64,000 bases of DNA from Pseudomonadales bacterium (GCA_020632235.1 JACKFY010000001.1:159334-223333); one strand, 5' to 3'. Shown: positions 2,930 to 32,834, counted from the first letter of the stretch. The notes: generated by a model not told the origin, from the letters alone. Program-made: numbers and translations.

Positions 2930-2930
2930 A

Positions 2931-3701
2931 TTATTTTTGTTTTTCTTGTTTGACTTTTTGAATGCTAAACAACCTACTCGGATCATAAGAATTAGAATCG
3001 ATCCTGTACAATCCCTTTTTCGGATGTTTGACAAAGATTGTTCTTATTGGATTTGCAAAGTTATTCAAGTCTTGAAAATCAGAAACAACAGTTACTTTGT
3101 CTGCGAAAAACTCATTTATTCTATTAAAAATTTCCTCAGTTGTAGCAACTCTTTGAGATTTATATTCACTGTCATTGTATAAACGAATCGAGAACAACGA
3201 AATTGACGTTACTGACAGTGTGATGAAGAAAATAAATAATATGGAACCAATCCAAACAACTTGACTAAAATTTATTAATAGTACAAATGATATAAGCGAA
3301 AACAGTAAGAATAAAAACCCTAAATCAATTGCCGTCATGCTCTTTGGATACGCTGGCCACTGTACTGTAGCTTTGTATTTTTCTGCTTCTTCAATTCCTT
3401 TTTCGAGAATAAGCTTATTAATCTCGTCGTTAATTTGGTTTCGCTTTTTGTTGTACCCAACACTATCCCAAGGAAACAATATAAATGGATTGAGCAATCT
3501 GCTTCTCAAGACAAAAACTCCAAGTATTAATCCAATTGAAATAATAAGTGCGACCAAACTTGATGCCTTATATATTTCTTCATTGCCAGAAAAAAACACT
3601 ACAAAACTTTCATTCAAGGAATATTGAGAAATTGCCACGGCTACGGCAGCAATAAAACCAATATTTTGAAGCAAATCAGCTAAAAATGAGTTTTTGTTCA
3701 T
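2931..3701 (-). CDS. hypothetical membrane protein (about 4 TM helices) embedded in the RM operon
   Basis: 256-aa ORF with four hydrophobic helices. Its stop lies 2 nt from the hsdR start and its start 2 nt from the stop of the upstream gene. No recognisable family. Confidence 0.5.
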   Translation of the reverse strand: MNKNSFLADLLQNIGFIAAVAVAISQYSLNESFVVFFSGNEEIYKASSLVALIISIGLILGVFVLRSRLLNPFILFPWDSVGYNKKRNQINDEINKLILEKGIEEAEKYKATVQWPAYPKSMTAIDLGFLFLLFSLISFVLLINFSQVVWIGSILFIFFITLSVTSISLFSIRLYNDSEYKSQRVATTEEIFNRINEFFADKVTVVSDFQDLNNFANPIRTIFVKHPKKGLYRIDSNSYDPSRLFSIQKVKQEKQK

Positions 3702-3702
3702 A

Positions 3703-4548
3703 TTATTTTTTCCCTAACAGTTTTTTCATTTTGTCTGAAAAATTTTTTGCTTTGTCGCTTCTACTTCTGATTTCCTCAAGCAGATAAGTGAGAATAGCTT
3801 TTATTGTTTCTGCCAGATCCAGGCACTCCTCATCTGTTTTATCGTGGATTCCATCACTTAAGGCTGAATGTAAAGCCTTTAAAGGATTAAATCCATCTGG
3901 CTGAAGCGACGAGGGAAGCAAATCTTGAACAAGTTCAATTTTTTCCTCTGTAACCCTAGTTTTCTTAACTTTCTCTAATGCTGCCTGATACCTTGCTTTG
4001 TCTTCCTCATCGAGTAAATCAGTGATGGAGTTCAATAGCTCATCTATGACATTTTCAGTAATCCGTCTGAAATATGCATACGAACCGATACCATAACTTT
4101 GGGATTCGCAAACTAAACCTTTTTTGTACAGTCCGGCATCTTCACTCAACGCCTTTGCTAGGTTCTGATCGATATCGATTTCCCAAGGCGGAGTTTGGCC
4201 GATCTTCCATACGTAGCCAATATAATTATTTTCATCCGATTTACTCTTTCCAGTTTTTATAAACTCTAAAAAGAATTTGAACTCGTAACTGTTACAAGAT
4301 GAACAAATATATTTGACTCGAAAAGTACTCCCCCAAACATCAGTATTTCTTGCGGTAGATTGATTAGATGCATGAACTTCCCAATAGTTATTGTTATTAT
4401 TAAATGTCTGAACAGATTTGCAGACCTTGCAATACATATTAATTGCAGGTTGTCCAATATCAGTGATGGAATCAGCGTGATAAGGCAATTCCAGCAAGAG
4501 CTTCTTATACAGAGGATATGATTCTAAAAATTGTTTTGTGATTATCAT
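3703..4548 (-). CDS. hypothetical protein with Cys-pair zinc-ribbon-like N-terminal region and an alpha-helical C-terminus resembling DUF4145
   Basis: 281-aa ORF with CKVC...CSSC cysteine pairs. The C-terminal segment (ALHSALSDGIHD...TIKAILTYLLEEI) resembles the DUF4145 domain, which often accompanies Type I RM and abortive-infection loci. The assignment is from memory and not verified. Confidence 0.4.
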   Translation of the reverse strand: MIITKQFLESYPLYKKLLLELPYHADSITDIGQPAINMYCKVCKSVQTFNNNNNYWEVHASNQSTARNTDVWGSTFRVKYICSSCNSYEFKFFLEFIKTGKSKSDENNYIGYVWKIGQTPPWEIDIDQNLAKALSEDAGLYKKGLVCESQSYGIGSYAYFRRITENVIDELLNSITDLLDEEDKARYQAALEKVKKTRVTEEKIELVQDLLPSSLQPDGFNPLKALHSALSDGIHDKTDEECLDLAETIKAILTYLLEEIRSRSDKAKNFSDKMKKLLGKK

Positions 4549-4549
4549 A

Positions 4550-5710
4550 TTAATTTATAGTTACTTTCTGACTAAAAATATCTTGCATGAGGCCTTTTTT
4601 TAGAGATATTAGAGTGTTTTTTTGTTTAATCTCACTTTCTATTTTAATATCAAGTTTGCAAAGTATATCTGCTATTTTTTGTTGCTCATCTGAGGAAGGT
4701 TTTGGAACGTACAAATTCTTTATATGCTTTAGACTCAGGGTCTTTTGATTTGACCCCACAACCTGCTTAGCAACCTGCTCAGTGGGAATTGGAGACTGTA
4801 AAGCGTAATAGAGATATTTACCATTTATTAATGGAGATATTATTGCTGTGTTTTGTCCTAAACAAAACTGCTTCGTTGTTGCCACATAAGAAAATACACC
4901 AAAGGAACCTACTCTGCTTATGACGATGTCGCCTTGCGCTGGAACATGATTTTTTGTGAATAGGTCATAAACCTTTTTTTCAACTTTGATACAACTAGAC
5001 AGATCTAGGTCACCTTGCTTAATATCAATAACTCTAACCATTGGCAATCCATCACCTGAATACTTTGGTGTTTGATGCAGAGAATCCACGACCTTTGCCA
5101 CTAAACTAAGCATTTTTATTTCCCACTCCTCAGGAATTTCACCCAATTTTGTCTTCTTAAACTTCTTGTGTCCTATTCCTTTGGTCAACAACTCACTCAT
5201 CAAACCTTGCTTGAGCTTCTCAGTTTTTTGAATTATTTGATCAGTTTTCTCAATCGTTTCATCAATTGTAGATAAAATATCGGCAACTTTTGCCTGAATT
5301 TTTAATGATGGATTTAGTATTTTTATTTTGTTTAATGAAGCTTGATTTAACTTTCCCCTGGTTGTTCCAGAAATGTAATTTCTCAGATCTGAGTAATTGA
5401 GATAATTCATTACGAACTGGATATTGGCATTTTTTATTCTCAGAACATGAGCATGGTTATTTACCCAACTCTTACCGTTAATGATAAATGCCGTGTTGGC
5501 TCCACCTGACCAGTCAGCTCCATCTTCGCCAATAAGCAGCAATTCCTCATCAAATATGTAGTCATTAACATAGTCAACAATCCCCGTTGCGCCATAGTAG
5601 GGAATATCACCAGATTTCCTCTTTAACTTAGCAACAGGCACTCTTTTGCTATCTAAGTTTTCAGATATATCGCTTATTGTTGTTGTGGGCCATTTATTTG
5701 TCATATTCAT
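4550..5710 (-). CDS. hsdS: Type I restriction-modification specificity subunit HsdS
   Basis: 386 aa with two target-recognition-domain halves separated by a conserved central helical region (LKQGLMSELLTKG), which is typical HsdS architecture. Confidence 0.85.
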   Translation of the reverse strand: MNMTNKWPTTTISDISENLDSKRVPVAKLKRKSGDIPYYGATGIVDYVNDYIFDEELLLIGEDGADWSGGANTAFIINGKSWVNNHAHVLRIKNANIQFVMNYLNYSDLRNYISGTTRGKLNQASLNKIKILNPSLKIQAKVADILSTIDETIEKTDQIIQKTEKLKQGLMSELLTKGIGHKKFKKTKLGEIPEEWEIKMLSLVAKVVDSLHQTPKYSGDGLPMVRVIDIKQGDLDLSSCIKVEKKVYDLFTKNHVPAQGDIVISRVGSFGVFSYVATTKQFCLGQNTAIISPLINGKYLYYALQSPIPTEQVAKQVVGSNQKTLSLKHIKNLYVPKPSSDEQQKIADILCKLDIKIESEIKQKNTLISLKKGLMQDIFSQKVTIN

Positions 5711-6042
5711 TTCTTAAACAAACCAATTATTGAATCAAATCCGTACTTGATGGGAGCTAGTAATGCCTTTTCTGCTGATATAACTACCAACCTTGTTCTC
5801 CAGGGATAAGCTGCTCCACACTCATGACAGTTCCAAGGAACTTCTTTTTTAGTAAGATCCAAAACACTATCTGAATGGTACTTACCTCGAATTTTTGCTT
5901 GGCAAATCAAACATTTAGTAACTGTTTCACCACCACATTTATCACACCGCTTCTGCCTATGGTTTGGTGAAGAATCGTAGTAGGCGGTAATTTGATTACC
6001 GCACCTGCGACACACTTGCATCGTGTCGTAATAATTACTCAT
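5707..6042 (-). CDS. small zinc-ribbon protein (four CxxC motifs)
   Basis: 111 aa with CRRC...CDKC...CLIC...CHEC. It has 4-nt ATGA-type overlaps with both neighbouring genes, which suggests translational coupling inside the RM operon. Confidence 0.5.
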   Translation of the reverse strand: MSNYYDTMQVCRRCGNQITAYYDSSPNHRQKRCDKCGGETVTKCLICQAKIRGKYHSDSVLDLTKKEVPWNCHECGAAYPWRTRLVVISAEKALLAPIKYGFDSIIGLFKK

Positions 6043-21297: not shown

Positions 21298-22494
21298 ATG
21301 ATCCTCACTGAGCATGAAGCAAAACAACTACTTGCTGCAGCACAGATTGCTGTTTCTCGGTCAGTTTTGATCACCAAAGAGCAGTTTGAAGACGCTCTAT
21401 ATTTTGAAACAACGAGTCACCTGCAGTTTCCTGCTTTTGCAAAAGCTCAAGTCTTGCATGGCAATAGAGCGCTGTCTGGACTTATCCAAAAAGTAGAAAC
21501 GGCCCAACAGCTGGATGATGTACTTACCAACCTTTTTTCTCTTTCAGATCAAAACAAGCAGCCTGTTACGAGCATATTACTAGAGGAGGCAATAGAGCAT
21601 GACGCTCAGCATTACTTGAGTGTAAGTTACAGTACGCGTGAGAGATCAGTGGTGATGCAGTACTCGGATGCCGGTGGGGTAGGGATGGATGAAAGGGGTG
21701 GGGAGATGCAGACGCACATCCTCTCGATTCTCACTCCGCCGACCAGCTTTCCTCTCAATCCAGAATTACTACCCCTCGTGCAACAACTCTGGCATGTTTT
21801 TACCCAGCATGACGCAACGCTGGTCGAGATCAATCCTTTAGTTCAGAATAATGGTGAGTGGGTGTGTTTGGACGCCAAGATAGAGCTTGATAGCGTTGCT
21901 GCCTTTCGACATTCAGAGTGGAGCGCCTATCCTGCACGAACAACTGCCGGTGCACCGCCAACAGAGCGTGAGCAAAAAGCCAAAGCGGTGAGTCGCTCTG
22001 ATCATCGAGGCGTGGCGGGCGAGAGCTTTTTAGAGTTTCCTGGCGGCGAGGTAGGCATTATGGCGTCTGGCGGTGGCGCTTCTCTTTTAGTAATGGACGC
22101 ACTGCTGTTGGTTGGTATCAAGCCGGCCAACTACACGGAGTACTCCGGCAACCCCACGCGCGAGAAAGTCCACCAGCTGACTGAGGTTGTCCTTTCTATT
22201 CCCCGTCTCAATGCACTTTTCGTGGTGGGGAGTAACGCCAACTTTACTGATATTTACGAAACACTGGCGGGAGTTGTTGATGGGTTTCTTGCCAGTGCGT
22301 ACGCATCGCAAGAAGGGTTTATCATCCTGATTCGCCGCGGTGGTCCGCGGTGGCAAGAGGCATTTGAGATGGTGCGTGAGCGGCTGGCAGACAGAAGTGT
22401 TATTTTAGAGCTGTTGGGGCCTGACGCCCCAGTGACGAGCACTGCCGGTATCTTGAAAGAATTGCTTGAGCAACAAGCAAAAAAGAAAGTATAG
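21298..22494 (+). CDS. succinyl-CoA synthetase beta-subunit-like ATP-grasp protein (possible citryl-CoA synthetase small-subunit homologue)
   Basis: It has an N-terminal MILTEHEAKQLL segment, FAKAQVLHGNR (compare VVKAQVHAGGRGK), LVEINPLV, and a CoA-ligase C-domain GIMASGGGASLLVMDAL. Confidence 0.8.
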   Translation: MILTEHEAKQLLAAAQIAVSRSVLITKEQFEDALYFETTSHLQFPAFAKAQVLHGNRALSGLIQKVETAQQLDDVLTNLFSLSDQNKQPVTSILLEEAIEHDAQHYLSVSYSTRERSVVMQYSDAGGVGMDERGGEMQTHILSILTPPTSFPLNPELLPLVQQLWHVFTQHDATLVEINPLVQNNGEWVCLDAKIELDSVAAFRHSEWSAYPARTTAGAPPTEREQKAKAVSRSDHRGVAGESFLEFPGGEVGIMASGGGASLLVMDALLLVGIKPANYTEYSGNPTREKVHQLTEVVLSIPRLNALFVVGSNANFTDIYETLAGVVDGFLASAYASQEGFIILIRRGGPRWQEAFEMVRERLADRSVILELLGPDAPVTSTAGILKELLEQQAKKKV

Positions 22495-22498
22495 ACGT

Positions 22499-23401
22499 AT
22501 GGCGTTTTTAGTTACCTCAGGCACCAAAGCACTCATCCAGGGCATGACCGGCAAAGAAGGGCAACGCGCGCTGGGGTGGATGCGCGCGGCTGGGACAGAG
22601 GTCTTGGCTGGCGTGACTCCTGGCAAGGGCGGGCAAGAGGTAGGCGGTGTGCCTGTGTTTGACAGTGTGGCAGAGGCTACGGTGGCTTTTCCCCAGATTA
22701 ACGCGACCACGCTCTATGTGCCGCCACGGTTTGTGCTCTCGGCGTTTCGTGAGGCAGCCCAGGCCGATATTCCTCTCATCCATATTTTTGCAGAAAACGT
22801 GCCGGTTAAAGACACAGCCGAGATGATCGAGCTCTCTGGTCAAAAAAACATTCGAGTGGTGGGGCCCAGCTCGGTGGGTGTTTTTAGCCCTGGTGTTGGC
22901 AGACTGGGCACGGCTGGTGGGGGGGATGAGAGTAACTTTTTGGCTCCGTCGGGGGTGGGTGGGGTGGCGATTATCTCAAAAAGCGGTGGGATGATCCCCA
23001 CGCTTGCTTTTCCACTGACGCAAGCAGGCATTGCCCAGACCACCGTGGTAGGCATTGGGGGTGATAGCCTGGTGGGTAGTACCTACGCAGATCTTCTCGA
23101 CCTCATCGCAGCTGACGGGCAAACAAAGGCACTTTTTATCATCGGTGAGATAGGTGGTAGTTATGAAGAACAACTAGCCGAGGCCATTATCCAGACCCAT
23201 TTTGCAAAACCAGTAGTAGCGCTCATCACGGGGCTGTTTGCCCAGACGCTGCCGCAAGGCTCTACCTTTGGTCACGCGGGGGCGATTGTGAGCAGGACTG
23301 AAGGGACGCGGGAGGGCAAGATCAAGGCTTTGCAACGCGCAGGGGTGACTATTTTGGATGATGCCAGTCAGGTGGCGAGGGTGGTGGGGGAAGTGTTGTA
23401 G
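22499..23401 (+). CDS. succinyl-CoA synthetase alpha-subunit-like protein (CoA-binding, catalytic His)
   Basis: It contains GVTPGKGGQEV, SKSGGM, GIGGD and the phospho-histidine loop GHAGAIV. Its start is 5 nt after the sucC-like stop. Confidence 0.85.
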   Translation: MAFLVTSGTKALIQGMTGKEGQRALGWMRAAGTEVLAGVTPGKGGQEVGGVPVFDSVAEATVAFPQINATTLYVPPRFVLSAFREAAQADIPLIHIFAENVPVKDTAEMIELSGQKNIRVVGPSSVGVFSPGVGRLGTAGGGDESNFLAPSGVGGVAIISKSGGMIPTLAFPLTQAGIAQTTVVGIGGDSLVGSTYADLLDLIAADGQTKALFIIGEIGGSYEEQLAEAIIQTHFAKPVVALITGLFAQTLPQGSTFGHAGAIVSRTEGTREGKIKALQRAGVTILDDASQVARVVGEVL

Positions 23402-23476
23402 CAACAACAGTATGTGGGGTATACTGGGAGGCGTGTATTTGAGAAGTAGTATTTCCTGCCAAAAAAGGGTGTTTCA

Positions 23477-26400
23477 ATGAAGCAAAAAAAACCAACAAGC
23501 AAAAACACCTTTGCAGATTTCACCAACCTATATTCACTCTCCAAGACTCTTCGGTTTGAGCTTGTCCCCTACAATGATGAAACAAGAACGATGCTTGGTG
23601 AGCATGACATTTCCCAAAAAGGAAAACTACGCAAGGAAAAATATGAACAGACTAAGCCTTTTATAGATAGATTGCATCGAGAGTTTGTACAAGAGGCTCT
23701 CCTAGATGTAAAGCTGGAAGAGTTAGCAGAGTACGCCCAATCATATGAGTTTTGGAAAAAAGATAAGAAAGGCTCAAAACAGAAAAAAGCACTTGAGTCT
23801 GCTGAAAAAGCTTTGCTGAAAGAAATAGGAGTATTATTTGATTCTCAGGGTAAAAAATGGGCAGAAGAATTTGCAGGTATTGAGGAAGTAAGTCTTAAGA
23901 AAAAAGATAAAGCTATTTTATTTGAAGAGGGCATTATGTCTGTGCTCAAGTATAAGTATGGAGAAGATCCAGAAAGTTTTGTACCAGGGGAAGATGGAGA
24001 GCAAGTCTCAATTTTTGATGACTGGAAGGGTTTTAGCGGTTATTTCACCAAGTTTTTTGAAACGAGGAAAAATTTTTATACAACTGATGGGAAAGCAACA
24101 GAAGTCGCAACACGAATAGTCAATAACCTTCGTCTTTTTTTGGATAATAGGGAAACTGCTAAAAATGTTTTGGGGAAATTATCTCAGAAAGATATAGATA
24201 CTGTCGGTAACAATTTTGATCTGGATGTAACAAATATCTTCACCATTGACTATTACAACCGACTCTTACTGCAAGATGGTATTGATCATTACAATATAAT
24301 TCTTGGCGGTGAGACGAAAGATAACGGAGAGAAACTACAAGGGCTCAATGAACTAATCAATCTTTGGAAACAGCAAAATCCAGGCGAGAAGCCTCCTTTC
24401 TTCAAAAAACTACAAAAGCAGATCTTGAGTCCAAAAGAAGCGTTTATAGAGCAAATTGAAAGTGATGAGGAGTTGCGGCAAGAACTGCAAGGTTTGTTGA
24501 CTGCATATGAAAAACATATTCTGCCTGGCAGAGATTTATTTCAAAACTTAAAAAATGATACGCAAGACTATGATTTAGATAGTATTTATTTCAACTCGTT
24601 TGGTCTCAACACGTTGATTCAAAAATGGGTGGGTGATAAGTCAGAGTTTATTAATAACCTCTACGATGTGCTTTCACAAAAAGAGATAAAACAGATATAC
24701 GAAGGATTTGGATTTGGTATAGCAAAACGGACAGGTGAGAATACTAAGTTTCCAGATTTTGTACGACTCTCAGACCTGCAAGCAGCATTGTTGCGCACTC
24801 CTACAGACCATAAACTTTGGAAAGAGTCATATTACTCTGACAAAGTTGTATTAGCAGATGATAAAAAGAATACTACTTGGCAACAATTCTCAACTATTTT
24901 CATACATGAGTTTGAGCAACAGTTTCAACGCAAGATAAGAGGAGAAGATAATCAAAGTATTACTGCAGGTTTGGACACTTCTTATAAAGAGTTGGTAGAG
25001 ATATTGCCAAGCATGCAGGCACCAACTAGAGAGAATAAAGTGGTTATCAAGAATTTTGCCGATGATCTACTGCGCACCTATCAAATGGCAAAGTACTTTG
25101 CTCTAGAGAAAAAGAGGTCTTGGGTGAGCGGCTTGAGCGAAGACCCAGCTTTTTATGCAGATAAAAATTTTGGTTACTACACTCATTTTTATGAAAATGC
25201 ATATGAAGATATCGTCCAGCCCTACAATAGGATCAGAAATTACTTGACCAAGAAAAATTATGGAGAGGATAAATGGAAGTTGAACTTCAATAAAAGTAAT
25301 TTATTGGGTGGTTGGCCAGATAGCCCCCCTGGAAATACACAGTATGGGGGATTGCTGTTTCGCAAAGATGAAAAGTACTTTTTGGGCGTGACAGATTACC
25401 CTAAAGTATTTGATAAAACACAAAATCCAGAGGCATTTAAAACAAGTGGAGAGACATTTGAAAAGATGGTCTACAAACAAATTGATGCCAAGACTTTGTA
25501 CGGCTCCGTCTACAAAGGTTTGTACGGCTCGAAGTACTCTGATGACAAGGAAGAAATGAGCGACAATGAATTAATAGCAAGAGTGAAAGAGGTACTACTC
25601 ACCAAAGTAGATTCATTTCCAAAACTTCACCAAATAATTAAGAAAATCGAAGCTGGTGCATATACTGATGCAAAAGAATTGGCTCGAGAGATAAGCGCTG
25701 GCAATTTTTATAACATCGATTTTATTCAGGTTTCTGCTGACTACTTAAAGCAAGGCCGTTATGTTTCTGGGAAAAATCAAAAAAATCTTTTCCTCTTCCA
25801 AATCAAAAACAAAGACTGGAATAAAGGAGCGAAAAAAACACAGGCATCTAAAAACCTTCATACCCTGTACTTTGAGGCACTCTTCTCAGAAGAGAATAAA
25901 CAAGCAAACTTCCCATTCAAACTTAACGGACAAGCAGAGTTGTTCTTTAGACCAAAGGTAAGTAAAAGTATTCTGGGTACCAAAAAGGATAAGCAGGGTA
26001 AAGAAGTTATAGACCATAAAAGATTCAACAAAGATATGTACTACTTTCATGTGCCTTTGACAGTAAACAGAACTCAGGAAGATACAAATGCATATCGTTT
26101 CAATAGAGAGATAAACGAATTTCTTGCAGACAAGCCAAATATCAACATCATTGGACTTGACCGAGGGGAGAAACACCTTATTTACTACTCAGTGATTGAT
26201 CAGAAAGGCGAGCGAATCGATGCCGGGAGTTTTAATACTATTAACGGGAAAAATTATAAAGAATTGCTTGAACAAAAAGCTGAAGAGAGGAAGAAAGCAA
26301 AACAAGACTGGCAGAGTGTGGAACAGATCAAAGACTTGAAAAAAGGCTACTTATCACTCGTGGTGCGAAAGGTTGTAGATCTCGTGATAGCACACAATGC

Positions 26401-27418
26401 CATCATCGTCATGGAAGACCTCAATATGCGGTTCAAACAGATCAGGGGTGGTATAGAACAAAGTGTGTATCAACAATTTGAGAAAGCACTCATAGACAAA
26501 CTCTCTTTTTTGGTCAATAAAGGTGAGAAAGATCCAGAATCAGCAGGGTACCTGCTACGCGCATATCAACTAGCAGCTCCTTTTGAGTCATTTCAAAAGA
26601 TGGGAAAACAGACAGGGATAATTTTTTACACAACTGCCAGCTATACCTCCAAGATAGATCCGCTGACTGGATGGCGACCCAATATCTACCTCAAGTACTC
26701 TAATCAAGAGAAGGCGAAAAAAGATATTGCCAAGTTCAAGAATATTGTGTTTGACTCAGTGAAAAATAGATTTGAATTCACCTATGATCTGGCAGATTTT
26801 TATAACAAAAAAGGCAAGATTGAGTTTCCTCAAAAAAGAGAATGGACAGTCTGCTCAAATGTAGAGCGTTATGCGTGGGACAAAAGGCTCAGTGGCAACA
26901 AAGGTGGCTATACGCATTATCCAGACCTAACTGACGGCAAAGCAGAAAATATGTTTAAAGAAAACGCTATCTCAAACTTCAAAAATCTATTTGAAAGTGT
27001 GGGAATAGATATACGCGGTGATATTCAAGCACAAATTGCACAGTTAGATACAAAAGATAACAAACAATTTTTCTCAACTTTTATGTATCTGTTCCGCTTG
27101 ATACTCCAAATCAGAAATACCAACTCTAACGAGACAACTGGTAGTGATGACAACGACTATCTGCAATCACCAGTTGAGCCATTTTTTGACACGCGCAGAT
27201 CTGCAGACTTTGCTGAAGGCCTGCCACAAAATGGTGATGAAAACGGGGCATACAATATTGCCAGGAAAGGCATATTCATCCTAGACAGACTCAGTGAGTT
27301 TGAGAACTTGACCGATAACGAGAAGAAGAAACTCAAATATCCAGATATCTTGGTGAGGAATGTGGAGTGGGATGCATTTGCAACAGAGAGTAAGATGTTT
27401 CTATCATCAATTAGATGA
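23477..27418 (+). CDS. cas12a: Cas12a (Cpf1), type V-A CRISPR effector nuclease
   Basis: 1313 aa. The N-terminus YSLSKTLRFELVPY matches the Cas12a WED-I signature. RuvC-I is IGLDRGEKHLIYYSVID, RuvC-II is IVMEDLNMRFK and RuvC-III is NGDENGAYNIARKG. It is followed by cas4-cas1-cas2 and an array whose repeats end in the Cas12a handle TCTACTTTTGTAGAT. Confidence 0.95.
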   Translation: MKQKKPTSKNTFADFTNLYSLSKTLRFELVPYNDETRTMLGEHDISQKGKLRKEKYEQTKPFIDRLHREFVQEALLDVKLEELAEYAQSYEFWKKDKKGSKQKKALESAEKALLKEIGVLFDSQGKKWAEEFAGIEEVSLKKKDKAILFEEGIMSVLKYKYGEDPESFVPGEDGEQVSIFDDWKGFSGYFTKFFETRKNFYTTDGKATEVATRIVNNLRLFLDNRETAKNVLGKLSQKDIDTVGNNFDLDVTNIFTIDYYNRLLLQDGIDHYNIILGGETKDNGEKLQGLNELINLWKQQNPGEKPPFFKKLQKQILSPKEAFIEQIESDEELRQELQGLLTAYEKHILPGRDLFQNLKNDTQDYDLDSIYFNSFGLNTLIQKWVGDKSEFINNLYDVLSQKEIKQIYEGFGFGIAKRTGENTKFPDFVRLSDLQAALLRTPTDHKLWKESYYSDKVVLADDKKNTTWQQFSTIFIHEFEQQFQRKIRGEDNQSITAGLDTSYKELVEILPSMQAPTRENKVVIKNFADDLLRTYQMAKYFALEKKRSWVSGLSEDPAFYADKNFGYYTHFYENAYEDIVQPYNRIRNYLTKKNYGEDKWKLNFNKSNLLGGWPDSPPGNTQYGGLLFRKDEKYFLGVTDYPKVFDKTQNPEAFKTSGETFEKMVYKQIDAKTLYGSVYKGLYGSKYSDDKEEMSDNELIARVKEVLLTKVDSFPKLHQIIKKIEAGAYTDAKELAREISAGNFYNIDFIQVSADYLKQGRYVSGKNQKNLFLFQIKNKDWNKGAKKTQASKNLHTLYFEALFSEENKQANFPFKLNGQAELFFRPKVSKSILGTKKDKQGKEVIDHKRFNKDMYYFHVPLTVNRTQEDTNAYRFNREINEFLADKPNINIIGLDRGEKHLIYYSVIDQKGERIDAGSFNTINGKNYKELLEQKAEERKKAKQDWQSVEQIKDLKKGYLSLVVRKVVDLVIAHNAIIVMEDLNMRFKQIRGGIEQSVYQQFEKALIDKLSFLVNKGEKDPESAGYLLRAYQLAAPFESFQKMGKQTGIIFYTTASYTSKIDPLTGWRPNIYLKYSNQEKAKKDIAKFKNIVFDSVKNRFEFTYDLADFYNKKGKIEFPQKREWTVCSNVERYAWDKRLSGNKGGYTHYPDLTDGKAENMFKENAISNFKNLFESVGIDIRGDIQAQIAQLDTKDNKQFFSTFMYLFRLILQIRNTNSNETTGSDDNDYLQSPVEPFFDTRRSADFAEGLPQNGDENGAYNIARKGIFILDRLSEFENLTDNEKKKLKYPDILVRNVEWDAFATESKMFLSSIR

Positions 27419-27905
27419 TTGTTGTTTTTGACTCTGATTGCACTTCTGTAATGGCTCGTAATCACGAAAAGCTCTCAAGAGAAATGACACGCTTGGACCT
27501 GGTTGAAGCTATTACAATAGCTACGACAATGATAGTGTATGGGGAAAAACAACATGGACTTGCAAATCAAAGCATGCCGCGTTCTAAGCGAATAAGAATG
27601 ATGGAGTACCTTAAAAATGTGTTGGTTCTTAATATCACTGGTGATGCGCCAAAAATATATGGACAGCTATGCTTTGATTTAACTAACTGATTTAAAGAAA
27701 AGTTTAAAAAAGCATGCAAACAAAAAGAGGCAAAGAAAAAGGCTAAGGAAGAAGTAAAAAAATGCATAATGACATCTGGACGGCTGCTATTTGCATAGAG
27801 AACAAAGCTTTACTATATTCAAGAGATCAAGATTTTGCGAAAATAAAAGCCGTAGACGATAGAGTATCTTGGGTTGACTGCAGAGATCTGTTATCTAATA
27901 GCTAA
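27415..27905 (+). pseudogene. PIN-domain (VapC-like) nuclease gene disrupted by an A-rich insertion with an in-frame stop and a frame change
   Basis: The N-terminal piece (27415-27690, MIVVFDSDC...APKIYGQLCFDLTN) ends at TGA. The C-terminal piece (about 27759-27905, MHNDIWTAAICIENKALLYSRDQDFAKI...) is a canonical VapC C-terminus but lies in the -1 frame. The two are separated by about 70 nt of lysine-codon-rich sequence containing an A7 run. The start overlaps the cas12a stop (ATGA). Confidence 0.6.
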
Positions 27906-28467
27906 TTTTATGCACTCCTACATCCAACTCTCAAAACTCAATGATTTCTTGTTTTGCCCGTACTCTGTTTACTTGAAATCCATCTACGACGGTTTCAAGT
28001 CAGACACCTATCATGCTACTCCGCAAAAACGAGGCAAAATCCATCACAAAGCGATAGATGAAGGCACCTATTCTTCTTCAACCCGCTACCTGCAGGGGCT
28101 TTCTGTCTATTCTGAAAAATATAACATAGCGGGGAAAATAGATATTTACGATACAGAGAAAAAAGCTCTAGTCGATCGAAAATACAAAGTAAAAGCCGTC
28201 TACGACGGGCATCGTTTTCAACTGTTTGGACAGTACTTTTGTATGGCGGAGCGAGGGTATGAGGTTGAAAAACTGTTTTTACACTCATTATCAGACAATA
28301 AACGCTATGAGGTGGCACTACCAGAGGGAATATGGCTTGAAAAGTTTGAGCAATTGGTTGTACGCATGCAGAACCCAGAAAACTATGAAAAAGACCCCGA
28401 TGTAACAATTGAAAAATGTCAAAATTGTATCTATAGTGTGCTGTGCCCGTATGCTAAGTCTGCCTGA
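27874..28467 (+). CDS. cas4: Cas4 (RecB-like nuclease with 4Cys Fe-S cluster)
   Basis: A single Cys (FLFCPYS) lies near the N-terminus and a C-terminal C-x2-C-x5-CPY cluster (CQNCIYSVLCPY) follows. It is positioned between cas12a and cas1. The true start may be the internal Met (MHSYIQL) at 27910. Confidence 0.85.
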   Translation: MTAEICYLIANFMHSYIQLSKLNDFLFCPYSVYLKSIYDGFKSDTYHATPQKRGKIHHKAIDEGTYSSSTRYLQGLSVYSEKYNIAGKIDIYDTEKKALVDRKYKVKAVYDGHRFQLFGQYFCMAERGYEVEKLFLHSLSDNKRYEVALPEGIWLEKFEQLVVRMQNPENYEKDPDVTIEKCQNCIYSVLCPYAKSA

Positions 28468-29407
28468 TTTTATCGAAAAAAAGATTTTAGTTGTTCCTAT
28501 AGAAGAAAAACTGGAGAGTCAGTTGAAATTACAAGTTGGCAACATAGTTTTAATGAAAGAAGGAAAAGTTATTGATAAGGTATCGTGCCACATTGTGTTT
28601 TGCATGGTGATTATTGGCGATTGCTCTATCACAACCAAGCTCATCCGAGAGCTTCAAAGCTATGGTATATCGGTTTTCTTACTCAACAGGTCTTTCAAGT
28701 TTATTACCAGCATACATGCACATGCAGAAGGCAACTATCAACTGAGGGAAAAACAGTATTTCCTTGATAAAGATACAGAGCTTTTGCTTTCCAAGCAGTT
28801 TGTCCAGAATAAGATAGATAACCAATGGGGCATCTTGCAGAAGACTGGACGGCTTGATCTTGAGCAGGCATATCGAGACACAACAGAAAAAGTGACGCTA
28901 GCCAACTCCATCGATTCTCTCAGAGGCCTAGAAGGGTCCTTTGCTTCTCGTTATTTTTCTGGTATTTTTGATGAAATTGGCTGGCTTCGCCGTGCTCCCA
29001 GAACAAAGGAAGATATAGCGAATGTCTTGCTTGATATAGGGTACACGTTTGTGTTCAATTATGTAGATGCACTTTTGCGCTTGTTTGGCTTTGACACATA
29101 CAAAGGTGTGTATCATCAGTTATTTTTCCAAAGACAGTCTCTTTCGTGCGATCTGATGGAGCCAATGCGTCCGATGATTGACTACCAACTCAGAAAGTCG
29201 TTCAATTTAGGCCAAATACAAGAAAAAGACTTTGTATTCAAAAACGAATCATTTCGTTTTAAGGACTACTCAGTCTCTGGGTCGTATTCCAATATTTGGT
29301 TTGATTTGATCATGAAGAAAAGAGAAGACATGTATCAATTCATATTTGGGTACTATCGGTGTTTTCAAAATCCAGAAAAGTATGAGTATGCTCAGTTCAA
29401 AGTATGA
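28409..29407 (+). CDS. cas1: Cas1 integrase
   Basis: Cas1-like sequence throughout. It overlaps the cas4 3' end and is followed by cas2 with a 4-nt overlap. Confidence 0.9.
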   Translation: MKNVKIVSIVCCARMLSLPDFIEKKILVVPIEEKLESQLKLQVGNIVLMKEGKVIDKVSCHIVFCMVIIGDCSITTKLIRELQSYGISVFLLNRSFKFITSIHAHAEGNYQLREKQYFLDKDTELLLSKQFVQNKIDNQWGILQKTGRLDLEQAYRDTTEKVTLANSIDSLRGLEGSFASRYFSGIFDEIGWLRRAPRTKEDIANVLLDIGYTFVFNYVDALLRLFGFDTYKGVYHQLFFQRQSLSCDLMEPMRPMIDYQLRKSFNLGQIQEKDFVFKNESFRFKDYSVSGSYSNIWFDLIMKKREDMYQFIFGYYRCFQNPEKYEYAQFKV

Positions 29408-29685
29408 TTGTTGTTGCCTACGATATCAGTAAGACGTCAAAGAGAACGAAGTTCTCCAAATTTTTAGAAAGGTACGGAGACCGCATTCAGTACTCGGTTT
29501 TTGTGTGCAAAAATAGCAAGCGAATTATGGAAAATATCACCACCGAGATAGAACATCACTTTGCCAAGTATTTTGATGCTGAAGACAGCGTGTTTGTGTT
29601 CACTACGTGTCAGAGTTGTGACAAGAAAACGCTCAAATATGGCAATGCTTCTCACTATGAAAAAGATGTGATATATTTTGGCTAG
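29404..29685 (+). CDS. cas2: Cas2
   Basis: 93-aa MIVVAYDIS... Cas2 fold signature, immediately upstream of the leader and array. Confidence 0.9.
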   Translation: MIVVAYDISKTSKRTKFSKFLERYGDRIQYSVFVCKNSKRIMENITTEIEHHFAKYFDAEDSVFVFTTCQSCDKKTLKYGNASHYEKDVIYFG

Positions 29686-29894
29686 CGTGCTCATTAACAT
29701 AGTTTTTTTACACAAAGGTATAAGTCTTTCTGTGTTGAATAAACCTCGGTCTTTCTATTTTGATATATTTATACTCATTTATAATATATTGTGTGTATAT
29801 ATCAATGTAGTCTCTTCCTGAGTCAGTCAAAAATGTCCAAGTTATATGTGCAGCTTTTTGTATCATTTTTGATTGACTCACCAATATTTAGGCA
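29686..29894 (+). promoter_or_regulatory. AT-rich CRISPR leader with candidate sigma70-like promoter (TTGATA ... TATAAT)
   Basis: A roughly 210-nt AT-rich segment between the cas2 stop and the first repeat. TTGATA sits near 29760 and TATAAT near 29780, with about 14-16 nt spacing. Confidence 0.4.
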
Positions 29895-31760
29895 GTTTAT
29901 TCAAAGTAGTCGATTTCTACTTTTTTGTAGATTCTCGAGCTCAGCGAAGTTTATTCAAAGTAGTCGATTTCACTTTTGTAGTTGAGTGTTTATTCAAAGT
30001 AGTCGATTTCTACTTTTGTAGATAGATGTTACCGTTGACCAGTCGCTCAGTTTATTCAAAGTAGTCGATTTCTACTTTTGTAGATAAGTCGTTTGAGGCT
30101 ACACATTCCACGTAGTTTATTCAAAGTAGTCGATTTCTACTTTTGTAGATTATACCCTGTCGTAATGTAGCGAGTTAATTCAACGAGAAGTTTATTCAAA
30201 GTAGTCGATTTCTACTTTTGTAGATTTTTAACAATGACAGTCCTACAGAAGACGTTTATTCAAAGTAGTCGATTTCTACTTTTTGTAGATCTTTAGTAAA
30301 AACATGATTCCGAGTTTATTCAAAGTAGTCGATTTCTACTTTTTTAGATCGTATAGACTTCTCAATCAGTGAGTTAATTTAGTTTATTCAAAGTAGTCGA
30401 TTTCTACTTTTGTAGATGCGCGTATGATGGCATGGATATATGCAAAAGTTTATTCAAAGTAGTCGATTTCTACTTTTGTAGATAAATAGTCATCTTTCTT
30501 TGTAGTCGATTTCTACTTTTGTTTCTGTTTATTCAAAGTAGTCGATTTCTACTTTTGTAGATAGATGAGCTAAAAGCGTCTGTAAAATGTAGTTTATTCA
30601 AAGTAGTCGATTTCTACTTTTGTAGATTTAAATAATGTTTATTCAAAGTAGTCGATTTCTAGAGAAAAGCTACCTCGAGTTTATTCAAAGTAGTCGATTT
30701 CTACTTTTGTAGATATCGATGTGTAGTGAGTGGGTATTGGTGGTGTTTATTCAAAGTAGTCGATTTCTACTTTTGTAGATAAATGTCCTCTGTTTGTCTA
30801 AACAGTTTATTCAATTAGTCGGTTTATTCAAAGTAGTCGATTTCTACTTTTGTAGTTTATTCAAAGTAGTCGATTTCTACTTTTGTATGAAGAGGAGGAT
30901 ATCTACATTAGTTTATTCAAAGTAGTCGATTTCTACTTTTGTAGATAATTGAAAGTTGTAGCGTTCTATTTAATAGTTTATTCAAAGTAGTCGATTTCTA
31001 CTTTTTGATGCTCGCAGTTAAAAAACAGGTTGGTGATAAGTTTAGTCGATTTCTACTTTTGTAGATTGTAGATGGAGCAGCTTAAAGCTCGTTGATGGTT
31101 TATTCAAAGTAGTCGATTTCTACTTTTGTAGATCACCAGGCTGGCTGGTATTGTTGACAGTTTATTCAAAGTAGTCGATTTCTACTTTTGTAGATAGTGC
31201 TGACCTGTCATCGAATGACGTCATGTTTATTCAAAGTAGTCGATTTCTACTTTTGTAGATCTCGAGAAGATTTTTCTTTATCAAGGGTTTATTCAAAGTA
31301 GTCGATTTCTACTTTTGTAGATATTCTTCTAATGATTTTGATCCTTATCCAGTTTATTCAAAGTAGTCGATTTCTACTTTTGTAGATTTTGTTTATAGTG
31401 AGCTAAAATTTGGTTTATTCAAAGTAGTCGATTTCTACTTTTGTAGATTACCAGTTTATTATTCTTCAAGATAACAATTCGTTTATTCAAAGTAGTCGAT
31501 TTCTACTTTTGTATATTCGAAAAAACCACCTTCTATAACTCCGTTTATTCAAAGTAGTCGATTTCTACTTTTGTAGATATATATGACTTATTTATTGCTT
31601 TTGAGTTTATTCAAAGTAGTCGATTTCTACTTTTGTAGATACTACAAGACCAATATTGATAAGGCAGTTTATTCAAAGTAGTCGATTTCTACTTTTGTAG
31701 ATGTGGCACTGCTACTGATTTACTTCTTGGTTTATTCAAAGTAGTCGATTTCACCCCATC
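29895..31760 (+). CRISPR. Type V-A CRISPR array, about 30 repeats of GTTTATTCAAAGTAGTCGATTTCTACTTTTGTAGAT (36 nt), transcribed in the same direction as the cas genes
   Basis: Direct reading of the sequence. Typical units have 23-32 nt spacers. The 3' part of the repeat forms the Cas12a crRNA hairpin UCUAC-UUUU-GUAGA-U. The terminal repeat, from about 31730, is truncated after GATTTC. Confidence 0.95.
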
Positions 31761-32098
31761 GCCCACCGCACAATTCCTACCACTGCGATGGTGTATACAA
31801 CGAGCCCTAAAAACTTCCTCCAAGGGCAAACTCCCTCAAAGATTTCCAGAAGTGCCCAGTAGATGATGGTGATATAGGATGCTGCCCGAAAGAACGGATG
31901 TAGCTGAGTGAACAAGTGATTTGTCACAAAAAGCCCAATAAGCGTTGTAAACCAAGCCAATAGCGGAGCGTTTGCCTTTTGGGCGATGACAACATTTCCC
32001 TCTTTATCAGTGAAGAATGCTCGAATAGAGGTACGTAGTGCGTGATGCATCTTTTTACTATAGCACTTGTCCTCACCGCGCACTATAATGAACTGCAT
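31751..32098 (-). CDS. hypothetical small membrane protein
   Basis: 115-aa ORF with two or three hydrophobic helices. Its stop codon lies inside the terminal degenerate repeat and its 5' end overlaps the start of the next gene on the opposite strand. It may be shorter (Met at residue 17). Confidence 0.4.
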   Translation of the reverse strand: MQFIIVRGEDKCYSKKMHHALRTSIRAFFTDKEGNVVIAQKANAPLLAWFTTLIGLFVTNHLFTQLHPFFRAASYITIIYWALLEIFEGVCPWRKFLGLVVYTIAVVGIVRWAMG

Positions 32099-32834
32099 GT
32101 CTGCAGGACTTCACTTTGACACTACTGTTTCAACTACTGCATCAGACGGTAGTCACCTCCTTCGTGGCAAGGCACTTACCGAGTGTATAGATGATGCAGA
32201 CTTTGTCAGTACATTTTTTCTCTCGCTGACTGGTCGTGAGCCAACCCAGGTAGAGTCTCGGTTGCTCAACGCTATGTTGGTAGCGTCCCTTGACCATGGG
32301 GTAGAGCCGTCATCTATGTTTGTCCCTAGAGTGGTAGCCTCGACGGGTAACGAGATGCTTCATTGCATGGCTACTTCACTCTTGGCGCTTGGGCCCCTGC
32401 ACGGTGGGGCTATCACCGGGGCAATGGAGATGTTCTACAGCCTCAAAGACAAAGAAGATAAAGAGCAAGCGTGTGTGCAGCTGGTAGAAGAGTTTCGCGC
32501 GAAAAAAAAACGAGTGCCAGGATATGGACATCCAAAGTACAAAGACAAAACAACCGGTGACCCACGCGCCCAGCAACTACTGCAGATGGCAGAAAAGGGA
32601 GGTCTTGATACTTCAGTTACCATGACCGCGCGAATTTTGGAAAATACGCTGGAATGGAAACTCAACAAAGTATTGGTGCTCAATATTGACGGGGCAATGG
32701 CAGCGCTTTTAACCACGTTTGGCATTGCGCCAGAGGCAGGAAACGGTATATTTGGGGTAGCACGCGTGGCTGGTAGTATTGCCCACATCGTAGAAGAACA
32801 AGAGAGTGATGCTGGTGTGAGAAGGCTAGCATAA
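32067..32834 (+). CDS. short citrate-synthase-family protein (citryl-CoA lyase-like)
   Basis: It has LVASLDHG (compare the citrate synthase LxxADHE) and VPGYGHPKYKDKTTGDPRAQQL (compare GFGHRVYKxxDPRA), and ends FGVARVAGSIAHIVEE. At 255 aa it corresponds to the CCL/small citrate-synthase-domain size. Confidence 0.65.
   Translation: MSSPRTIMNCMSAGLHFDTTVSTTASDGSHLLRGKALTECIDDADFVSTFFLSLTGREPTQVESRLLNAMLVASLDHGVEPSSMFVPRVVASTGNEMLHCMATSLLALGPLHGGAITGAMEMFYSLKDKEDKEQACVQLVEEFRAKKKRVPGYGHPKYKDKTTGDPRAQQLLQMAEKGGLDTSVTMTARILENTLEWKLNKVLVLNIDGAMAALLTTFGIAPEAGNGIFGVARVAGSIAHIVEEQESDAGVRRLA

What the first reader, a model, noticed from the sequence alone, without database searches (positions are those of the whole stretch)
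29895..31760. Eroded, irregular CRISPR array: degenerate leader-proximal repeats, truncated repeats, repeat fragments inside spacers, and a repeat-repeat junction with no spacer
All of this is seen directly in the sequence. Repeat 1 (29895) has a TTTTTT loop, and others have T5 or a G-to-T change. Repeat 2 (29949) lacks a T and is followed by only 6 nt before repeat 3. Spacer 1 is 16 nt, and other spacers range from 9 to 39 nt. Truncated repeats occur at about 30637 and 30976. Isolated 3' repeat fragments lie inside spacers at about 30498 (GTAGTCGATTTCTACTTTTGT) and 31041. A 5' fragment (GTTTATTCAATTAGTCG) lies at about 30805, followed by two repeats abutting without a spacer (about 30824-30890). 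The terminal repeat is truncated. Degeneration at the leader end is unusual, because new spacers are normally added there. This suggests recombination or deletion between repeats, loss of adaptation, or assembly collapse in a repetitive region.
Basis: seen in the sequence. Interest (0 to 1): 0.6.

Follow-up and report, generated by a model that had tools for sequence, protein, structure and literature searches.

The report
Cas12a CRISPR array, garbled by assembly
This is an ordinary Cas12a (type V-A) CRISPR array next to a complete set of cas genes in an uncultivated wastewater bacterium, and its broken repeats and stunted spacers are most likely errors of a Nanopore/Illumina hybrid assembly across a part of the array that varies between strains, not real erosion.

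Summary
Window 29895-31752 holds 31 copies or fragments of the 36-nt repeat GTTTATTCAAAGTAGTCGATTTCTACTTTTGTAGAT. Twelve of the first 20 units are aberrant, against 1 of the last 10.

The array is a type V-A array with the Cas12a crRNA handle. It lies downstream of intact cas12a-cas4-cas1-cas2 and a 209-bp AT-rich leader.

The erosion reading is doubtful. The window's Cas12a is identical to NCBI MCB9801678.1, which sits on a 271,383-bp contig. That length matches the longest contig of MAG HK-STAS-PATE-17 (Patescibacteria, 0.044% abundance) of Liu et al. 2021. That MAG was built from 86.7%-accurate Nanopore reads and re-assembled with Unicycler, which inserts raw long-read consensus wherever the Illumina graph dead-ends.

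Short-read contigs of the same locus, two of them from that study's own Illumina runs, dead-end at or collapse this array. They show a canonical first repeat followed by normal 26-27 nt spacers that differ between samples. They also carry at least 3 cas haplotypes. Outside the array the window shows no indels over about 20 kb.

So adaptation is active, and the lesions are confined to the part that is hardest to assemble. My estimates are about 0.7 for an assembly artefact and about 0.2 for real lesions. Only the truncated terminal repeat is independently confirmed. Interest is low.

The parts
23477..27418 (+). cas12a (1313 aa), intact
   Evidence: Matches TIGR04330 cas_Cpf1 at 724 bits (cut-off 300) and Pfam REC1, RuvC_1 and NUC. 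RuvC motifs GLDRGE and MEDLN are present. It is 100% identical to NCBI MCB9801678.1.
27415..27690 (+). 91-aa ORF overlapping the cas12a stop codon; a weak, truncated PIN/VapC-like match
   Evidence: NCBIfam VapC match at E = 1.5e-4 and 22 bits, far below the cut-off. No Pfam or PADLOC hit. The ORF is called in all related contigs. It has two non-synonymous differences between strains.
27910..28467 (+). cas4 (type V)
   Evidence: TIGR04328 cas4_PREFRAN at 204.5 bits, cut-off 70.
28451..29407 (+). cas1
   Evidence: TIGR00287 at 144.5 bits, cut-off 71.7. The type V model TIGR04329 scores 288.5 bits, just under its cut-off of 300.
29404..29685 (+). cas2
   Evidence: TIGR01573 at 45.4 bits, cut-off 24.5. 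The identical protein occurs in 5 other contigs.
29686..29894 (+). AT-rich leader
   Evidence: Identical in L001, L002, L003 and L005. A promoter-like site, TTGATA-16-TAATAT, lies at 29760-29787; this is a consensus match only. New spacers differ between samples immediately after the first repeat.
29895..31752 (+). Type V-A CRISPR array: 31 repeat copies or fragments, transcribed on the + strand
   Evidence: The repeat ends in the Cas12a handle ATTTCTAC-TTTT-GTAGAT.
29925..31066 (+). Irregular zone (units 1-20). Half of its repeats are perfect. The rest carry T-run changes, small deletions, truncations and fragments. Spacers range from 4 to 39 nt. Probably long-read-derived or badly polished sequence.
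   Evidence: The first lesion (two extra T at 29925-29926) begins exactly where the Illumina contig L002 dead-ends, at window 29924, which is repeat position 30.
31067..31729 (+). Regular distal block. It opens with the 31-nt second spacer of unit 20, followed by units 21-30 with spacers of 25-32 nt. One repeat substitution, G->T, at 31514.
31730..31752 (+). Terminal repeat truncated to 23 nt. This one is real.
   Evidence: The same truncated repeat and the same junction (…GATTTC|ACCCCATCG) occur in the independent Illumina contig L001.

Best explanation
The locus is a normal, active type V-A CRISPR-Cas system. It runs cas12a, a 91-aa ORF, cas4, cas1, cas2, leader and array, in a low-abundance Patescibacteria (CPR) bacterium from Hong Kong activated sludge.

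How it works (inferred from established knowledge of type V-A systems): the array is transcribed from the leader. Cas12a itself cuts the pre-crRNA just upstream of the 3' hairpin of each repeat. This yields crRNAs made of about 19-20 nt of repeat handle plus the first 20-24 nt of spacer. Cas4-Cas1-Cas2 add new spacers at the leader-repeat junction.

The irregularities in the leader-proximal 1.15 kb (29925-31066) are most likely not in the DNA. The contig comes from a Unicycler hybrid assembly of 86.7%-accurate Nanopore reads plus Illumina reads. The source population holds several strains that differ in exactly this part of the array. There the Illumina graph dead-ends, the long-read consensus is pasted in as a bridge, and short-read polishing cannot repair it. 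The result is T-run length errors, 1-3 nt deletions, and mis-registered consensus that truncates repeats and spacers.

Shown: the identity of the system, the leader end, active acquisition, strain heterogeneity, the provenance of the contig, the assembler's behaviour, and the confinement of lesions to the array.

Inferred: that this particular stretch is a long-read bridge.
For: 1. System identity.

2. Provenance:
- The window's Cas12a equals MCB9801678.1, which lies on a single contig of 271,383 bp.
- 271383 appears once in Table S3 of Liu et al. 2021 (PMC8518188). It is the ctg_max of HK-STAS-PATE-17: 6 contigs, 0.87 Mb, GC 0.457, abundance 0.044%, Patescibacteria/Microgenomatia/UBA1400.
- The partial relative in GCA_020429005.1 is labelled Woesebacteria, which is consistent.

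3. Method of that study: metaFlye on Nanopore reads of mean accuracy 86.7%, then Unicycler hybrid re-assembly twice.

4. [quoted passage not shown] It also states that a bridge can rest on a single read (PMC5481147).

5. SRR12358675 and SRR12358676 are that study's Illumina runs. Their Logan contigs hold the same locus. L002 dead-ends at repeat position 30. L001 collapses the array to one spacer.

6. Heterogeneity:
- There are three cas haplotypes: the window, L001 and L002.
- There are four different spacers after the first repeat: the window's, and those of L001, L003 and L005.
- The trailer-most spacer in L001 also differs.

7. In L001, L003 and L005 the first repeat is canonical (T4) and the spacers are 26-27 nt.

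8. Outside the array the window is clean. It shows 0 indels against L001 over about 20 kb. Coding density is 89% with no broken genes.

9. Lesion pattern:
- Almost all lesions are indels or truncations in otherwise perfect repeats.
- They are interspersed with canonical repeats.
- They are enriched in the young part of the array, 12/20 against 1/10 (p = 0.017). Time-dependent decay would give the opposite.

10. A relative's V-A array (L090) is regular in short-read data, and it too dead-ends or collapses.
Against: No reads were examined, so no irregular junction has been shown to be absent from the raw data.

The link between window and MAG rests on protein identity plus an exact match of contig length, not on an accession. 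NCBI labels the protein's source 'Pseudomonadales bacterium', which disagrees with the paper's taxonomy.

Half of the repeats in the irregular zone are perfect. Raw R9 consensus would be noisier, so partial polishing has to be assumed.

My crude simulation of a long-read consensus did not reproduce the observed pattern.

The sample contains a strain whose last spacer differs (L001). The clean distal block is therefore not explained simply by all strains sharing it.
Confidence: 0.7

Rival explanations
1. The irregular units are real. They arose in vivo in this strain through faulty or ectopic spacer integration (a misplaced second nucleophilic attack gives a truncated 5' repeat copy), through error-prone gap filling after integration, or through microhomology-mediated deletions. 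This could be favoured by the reduced DNA-repair repertoire of CPR bacteria. Units that keep an intact 3' handle would still yield working crRNAs, because Cas12a needs only the last 19-20 nt of the repeat.
For: - Unit 13 (25-nt 5' repeat, 17 nt, then a full repeat) has the layout expected of a mis-measured integration.
- Some junctions share microhomology, for example GTAG at the 17/18 junction.
- A 7-nt tandem duplication, TTGTAGA, lies at 31059-31073.
- About 20 of 30 units keep an intact handle.
- Sequence quality elsewhere in the window is high.
- A path in a short-read graph would contain only k-mers that exist in reads.
Against: - It needs about a dozen independent, array-specific lesions in the youngest part of the array, with none in about 20 kb of flanks.
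- Contigs with the identical cas and leader sequence show canonical first repeats and full-length spacers.
- Spacers of 4, 9 or 16 nt, and two repeats abutting with no spacer, are not products of integration.
- The contig comes from a pipeline known to leave long-read errors exactly where the short-read graph breaks.
Confidence: 0.2
2. The array is decaying because adaptation or interference has been lost. This is true erosion, as in an orphan or degenerate array.
For: Many aberrant repeats. The terminal repeat is truncated.
Against: - cas12a, cas4, cas1 and cas2 are full length and score as family members.
- Different spacers follow the first repeat in contigs that share the same cas and leader sequence.
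- Decay should give scattered substitutions and hit the oldest units hardest. Here the oldest 10 units are almost perfect.
- A truncated terminal repeat is common in healthy arrays.
Confidence: 0.05
3. The degenerate leader-proximal units are functional elements. Unit 1 (T6 loop plus 16-nt spacer) and unit 2 would act as a Cas-regulating crRNA-like RNA (CreR- or mini-array-type) that uses partial complementarity to repress a promoter without cleavage.
For: A degenerate repeat with a short spacer next to the cas operon has the general form of such regulators. Cas12a binds but does not cut with guides of about 16 nt or less (established knowledge).
Against: - The 16-nt spacer has no match near the cas12a promoter or elsewhere. 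The best match has 3 mismatches and lies inside a metabolic gene at 23095, at the level of chance.
- The 17-nt spacer has no match.
- No spacer has a self-target in the window.
- The units are absent from L001, L003 and L005, which have a canonical repeat 1.
Confidence: 0.03

Closest known systems
Type V-A (Cas12a/Cpf1) CRISPR-Cas loci, e.g. Francisella novicida U112, Acidaminococcus sp. BV3L6, and the Parcubacteria and Peregrinibacteria Cpf1 loci
   Same: The gene order cas12a-cas4-cas1-cas2-array is the same. The repeat is 36 nt and ends in the handle AUUUCUAC-UUUU-GUAGAU. No tracrRNA-type element is needed. Regular spacers are 25-32 nt. Solved Cas12a structures match at E = 1e-116 to 1e-156. 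The nearest natural homologues, at 44-52% identity, are mostly from CPR MAGs.
   Different: An extra 91-aa PIN-like ORF lies between cas12a and cas4. The 5' half of the repeat is unique. In the WED region the protein reads EVIDHKRF and lacks the upstream His seen in FnCas12a, AsCas12a and LbCas12a. This trait is shared by its whole CPR clade. The apparent irregularity of the array is probably not biological.
Long-read consensus bridges in Unicycler hybrid assemblies (Wick et al. 2017)
   Same: The errors are confined to a stretch where the short-read graph dead-ends. The flanks are at Illumina accuracy. The error spectrum is homopolymer length changes, small deletions and mis-registered repeats. 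The source MAG was built with this tool from R9 Nanopore reads.
   Different: Whether this particular stretch was a consensus bridge, rather than a graph path, cannot be seen from the sequence. Half of the repeats in it are perfect.
Degenerate or truncated trailer-end repeat of CRISPR arrays
   Same: The last repeat (31730-31752) is cut to 23 nt. The same form occurs in an independent Illumina assembly.
   Different: This explains only the last unit, not the leader-proximal lesions.
Cas-regulating crRNA-like RNAs (CreR, mini-arrays; described for types I-B, I-E and V-A)
   Same: A degenerate repeat followed by a short spacer lies close to the cas genes.
   Different: There is no partial target in any promoter of the window, and the unit is not conserved in sister strains.

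Membership tests
Type V-A CRISPR-Cas | Single effector Cas12a with RuvC and Nuc domains and no HNH domain | tested here: met
   TIGR04330 at 724 bits against a cut-off of 300. Pfam RuvC_1, REC1 and NUC. PADLOC Cas12a at 1017 bits.
Type V-A CRISPR-Cas | Repeat of about 36 nt whose 3' end forms the 5-bp hairpin UCUAC-N4-5-GUAGA followed by U, with the spacer downstream | tested here: met
   Seen directly in the sequence: …ATTTCTACTTTTGTAGAT in 20 perfect copies. The hairpin is predicted when the 5' part is absent (sixth sequence). In the full repeat, a competing stem AAAGUAG/CUACUUU is the minimum-energy fold.
Type V-A CRISPR-Cas | Adaptation module cas4-cas1-cas2 between the effector and the array | tested here: met
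   TIGR04328, TIGR00287 and TIGR01573 all score above their cut-offs.
Type V-A CRISPR-Cas | T-rich 5' PAM (TTTV) next to protospacers | not testable with these tools
   No protospacer was found. The whole array against GenBank phages gave nothing significant. Four spacers had no exact match in IMG/VR. There is no self-target.
Type V-A CRISPR-Cas | Cas12a RNase residues for pre-crRNA processing (Fn H843, K852, K869) | tested here: inconclusive
   In low-confidence alignments, As H800 aligns to T836 and As K860 aligns to the D of EVIDHKRF. The [ND]HKR[YF] arrangement is conserved in dozens of clade members, so it is a clade trait. Activity is unknown.
Active (adapting) CRISPR array | Polarised spacer turnover at the leader end between otherwise identical strains | tested here: met
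   L003 and L005 have 0 differences from the window up to the array, but different first spacers.
Eroded or orphan CRISPR array | Absent or inactivated cas genes, substitutions scattered over the repeats, and the oldest units most degraded | tested here: not met
   The cas genes are intact. The lesions are indels and truncations, and they concentrate in the youngest units.
CreR-type regulatory mini-array | A short spacer partially complementary to a cas promoter, conserved across strains | tested here: not met
   Searches found no target. The unit is absent from L001, L003 and L005.
Hybrid-assembly long-read bridge artefact | The contig was produced by a pipeline that inserts long-read consensus where the short-read graph has dead ends | tested here: met
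   Searches give the provenance. Searches give the method. One search gives Unicycler's behaviour. Searches show the same study's Illumina data dead-ending or collapsing at this array.
Hybrid-assembly long-read bridge artefact | The irregular junctions are absent from accurate reads | not testable with these tools
   Raw reads cannot be searched here. Look-ups of array ORFs and a profile search for array-derived pseudo-proteins found nothing on record.

The most novel reading that the evidence does not exclude
The lesions are real. A CPR bacterium with a minimal DNA-repair repertoire would then run a sloppy type V-A adaptation and repair cycle. That cycle would routinely produce truncated repeats, repeat fragments and stunted spacers at the growing end of the array. 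The array would still work because Cas12a needs only the 3' 19-20 nt of each repeat. This would be a natural example of error-prone CRISPR adaptation tolerated by the effector's processing rule.
Probability: 0.15. Interest if true: 0.5.

Novelty: already known. Interest (0 to 1): 0.12.

Why it matters
This matters mainly as a caution. CRISPR arrays in hybrid or long-read metagenome assemblies of mixed strains can look 'eroded' when they are not. The spacers between 29.9 and 31.07 kb should not be used for virus-host linking or for evolutionary inference until they are checked against reads.

Biologically, the locus is one more active Cas12a system in a Patescibacteria genome, and its protein is already annotated in NCBI.

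If the lesions were real, they would say something about the fidelity of spacer integration in organisms with reduced repair. I consider that unlikely.

Tried and rejected
- Exact repeat scans of GTDB genomes, JGI metagenomes and IMG/VR gave 0 hits. No further arrays of this species could be fetched that way.
- Cas12a against JGI metagenome contigs found no relative.
- Enolase against GTDB genomes gave only 51-57% hits from many phyla, which did not help with taxonomy.
- Four spacers against IMG/VR and the whole array against GenBank phages found no protospacers.
- The array region against plasmids gave nothing.
- A self-target search in the window gave only chance matches of 15 nt or less.
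- The CreR-like regulator idea for the 16- and 17-nt spacers found no target.
- I looked for independent assemblies of the array interior:
  - Exact look-ups of three array ORFs, the leader ORF and the downstream gene gave nothing new.
- The look-up of P0001's contig is not on record.
- A literature search for the accession numbers gave 0 hits. A search for 'ReChb' gave only irrelevant hits.
- A crude simulation of a Nanopore consensus, clonal against mixed strains, was too noisy without a polishing step and was uninformative.
- Shared k-mers between spacers turned up only GAGTTAATT (a degenerate repeat start in units 5 and 8) and TGAGCTAAAA (spacers 11 and 25, compatible with chance). There are no duplicated spacers.

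Full report
**1. Is the observation right?**

Yes. Window 29895-31752 (+) holds 31 copies or fragments of one 36-nt repeat, GTTTATTCAAAGTAGTCGATTTCTACTTTTGTAGAT. Twenty copies are perfect.

- a T6 loop in repeat 1, followed by a 16-nt spacer
- repeat 2 lacking a T and followed by 6 nt
- T5 loops and G->T variants
- spacers from 9 to 39 nt
- truncated repeats at 30637 and 30976
- 3' fragments at 30502 and 31040
- a 5' fragment at 30805, followed by two abutting 33-nt repeats
- a 23-nt terminal repeat

I found two further hidden fragments. The 39-nt 'spacer' of unit 5 contains GTTAATTCAA at 30174. The spacer of unit 8 ends in GTTAATTTA.

Aberrant units number 12 of the first 20 and 1 of the last 10 (p = 0.017).

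**2. What is it?**

The repeat ends in the Cas12a crRNA handle, ATTTCTAC-TTTT-GTAGAT. Directly upstream on the same strand lie:
- cas12a at 23477-27418 (1313 aa; TIGR04330 at 724 bits, cut-off 300)
- a 91-aa ORF
- cas4 (TIGR04328)
- cas1
- cas2
- a 209-bp AT-rich leader

Solved Cas12a structures match at E down to 1e-156. So this is a complete type V-A locus with its array in the usual position and orientation.

The cas2 side is the acquisition end. Three other assemblies have the identical leader followed by a first repeat and a different first spacer in each. The truncated last repeat, with the same junction to the flank, is also present in an independent Illumina contig.

No protospacers were found. 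No self-targets were found.

**3. Where does the sequence come from?**

The window's Cas12a is 100% identical to NCBI protein MCB9801678.1, which lies on one contig of 271,383 bp.

That exact number is the longest-contig length of MAG HK-STAS-PATE-17 in Table S3 of Liu et al. 2021 (PMC8518188). The MAG has 6 contigs, 0.87 Mb, GC 0.457 and relative abundance 0.044%. Its taxonomy is Patescibacteria; Microgenomatia; UBA1400.

The NCBI organism label 'Pseudomonadales bacterium' disagrees with this. Three things fit a CPR organism instead:
- A second MAG fragment of the same locus is labelled Woesebacteria.
- The Cas12a homologues are from CPR genomes.
- The best enolase hits include many Patescibacteria.

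The study assembled PromethION reads of mean accuracy 86.7% with metaFlye. It then re-assembled each bin twice with Unicycler, using Illumina plus Nanopore reads.

[quoted passage not shown] It also says that one read can be enough for a bridge (PMC5481147).

**4. Do the Illumina data of that study break at this array?**

Yes. SRR12358675 and SRR12358676 are the study's two Illumina runs (PMC10928208, Supplementary Data 9).

Their Logan (k = 31) contigs carry the same locus at 99.9% identity. L002 stops at position 30 of the first repeat, which is window 29924. The window's first lesion, two extra T, begins at 29925. L001 collapses the array to leader, repeat, one 26-nt spacer and the truncated terminal repeat.

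Contigs from other samples of the same plant's time series and from an NCBI MAG (L003, L004, L005) also end at or just inside the array. A related V-A locus behaves the same way in short-read assemblies, and where it is assembled it is regular with 61-62 nt spacing.

**5. Is the population heterogeneous exactly here?**

Yes.
- The window, L001 and L002 are three different haplotypes. They differ at 6-8 SNPs, all within 26391-29209.
- L003, L004 and L005 have no difference from the window before the array. Even so, L003 and L005 have first spacers that differ from the window's and from each other.
- L001's trailer-most spacer also differs from the window's.

Reads that span this array therefore come from several array variants.

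**6. Is the rest of the window clean?**

Yes. Against L001 there are 0 indels and only the 8 SNPs over about 20 kb outside the array. Coding density is 89%, with long unbroken ORFs. Whatever made the lesions acted only on the array.

**7. Weighing the explanations**

Biological decay predicts substitutions scattered over the repeats and more damage in the oldest units. Recombination between repeats predicts loss of whole units. Neither matches the data.

The lesions are almost all indels or truncations in otherwise perfect repeats. They include three changes in the T4 run. They are interspersed with canonical repeats, and they sit in the youngest two-thirds of the array.

Faulty integration could give a truncated 5' repeat plus a spacer, as in unit 13. 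It cannot give spacers of 4, 9 or 16 nt, or repeats that abut with no spacer. It would also need about a dozen independent events in one strain, while sister contigs with the same cas and leader sequence show canonical units.

The hybrid-assembly explanation accounts for several things at once:
- the location, which starts where the Illumina graph dead-ends
- the error spectrum
- the clean flanks
- the clean distal block

My estimates are about 0.7 for the artefact, about 0.2 for real lesions, 0.05 for true erosion through loss of function, and 0.03 for a regulatory role.

The regulatory (CreR-like) idea was tested and failed. The short spacers have no target, and the units are absent from the sister strains.

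**8. Limits**

I could not see reads, so no junction is proven absent from the raw data. The link between window and MAG rests on protein identity plus an exact contig length. Half the repeats in the irregular zone are perfect, which requires that polishing partly worked. My simple simulation did not reproduce the pattern. The decisive test is a count of junction k-mers in SRR12358675 and SRR12358676, together with per-read unit lists from the Nanopore runs.

**9. If the sequence were taken at face value**

Cas12a needs only the 3' 19-20 nt of a repeat (established knowledge of type V-A). About 20 of the 30 units would therefore still give usable crRNAs. These include unit 20's second copy, which has a 9-nt deletion in the dispensable 5' part, and probably the T5-loop unit 7.

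The following would be dead or doubtful:
- units 2, 13, 16, 17 and 18, the first copy of unit 20, and the fragment in unit 10, because the handle is broken
- unit 12, because its spacer is only 9 nt
- unit 1, because its spacer is only 16 nt; its T6 loop also makes the handle doubtful
- units 8 and 27, because a G->U change breaks a stem pair

**10. Verdict**

This is an ordinary, already-annotated type V-A CRISPR-Cas locus. The apparent erosion of its array is most probably a product of the assembly method. Only the truncated terminal repeat is independently confirmed as real. Interest is low.

Noticed in passing
window 21298-23401 and 32088-32834, with the island at 23402-32087: The whole CRISPR-Cas locus (GC about 0.37, flanks about 0.50) sits between two genes resembling citryl-CoA synthetase or ATP-citrate-lyase subunits and a gene resembling a citrate-synthase C-terminal domain or citryl-CoA lyase. 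It looks as if an island had been inserted into that gene cluster. The same arrangement is present in the Illumina contigs L001 and L002. Such genes are unexpected in a 0.87-Mb Patescibacteria MAG.
   Followed up: partly
window 27415-27690 (+): A 91-aa ORF overlaps the cas12a stop codon. It has a weak match to the N-terminal two-thirds of a PIN/VapC nuclease (E = 1.5e-4, 22 bits). It begins MIVVFDSD. Two of the 8 strain SNPs are non-synonymous changes in it, R56P and G76S. It may be a decaying toxin gene or an accessory gene.
   Followed up: partly
window 26391-29209: All 8 differences between the window and L001 lie in the 3' end of cas12a, the 91-aa ORF, cas4 and cas1. There are none in about 17 kb of flanking genes. 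This suggests local recombination or diversifying selection in the cas genes.
   Followed up: partly
window 25950-26010 (Cas12a residues about 826-850): This Cas12a reads RPKVSKSILGTKKDKQGKEVIDHKRF. It lacks the His that aligns with the pre-crRNA-processing His of FnCas12a, AsCas12a and LbCas12a. It has D-H where they have K-D. Dozens of CPR-clade homologues share [ND]HKR[YF]. This may be a rearranged RNase site and has not been tested.
   Followed up: partly
each repeat, e.g. window 29996-30016: In the full 36-nt repeat the predicted minimum-energy fold is not the Cas12a handle hairpin. It is a competing 7-bp stem, AAAGUAG/CUACUUU, at -7.6 kcal/mol with a z-score of -3.3.
   Followed up: no
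window 31751-32098 (-): A 115-aa ORF with hydrophobic stretches has no family match. It overlaps the last 2 nt of the terminal repeat. A terminator-like hairpin lies on the same strand at 31842-31817, inside the ORF, which argues against a real gene. The ORF is not called as a gene in the Logan contig.
   Followed up: partly
NCBI MCB9801678.1 and HK-STAS-PATE-17: The NCBI protein record names the source 'Pseudomonadales bacterium'. The MAG with the matching contig length is classified as Patescibacteria/Microgenomatia in the paper. This is probably a labelling error in the public record.
   Followed up: partly
window 1-6000: GC falls to 0.36-0.39 in the first 6 kb, including part of a minus-strand ORF of more than 1000 codons that runs off the window start. 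The rest of the window is at about 0.48. This may be another horizontally acquired segment.
   Followed up: no
L089 13947-14035 and L090 13942-14167: The closest well-sampled relative (Cas12a P0006, 51% identity) has the repeat GTTAAATAGCTTTATTAAATTTCTACTTTTGTAGAT. Its last 18 nt (ATTTCTACTTTTGTAGAT) are identical to the window's repeat and its 5' part is unrelated. Only the 3' handle is conserved.
   Followed up: yes
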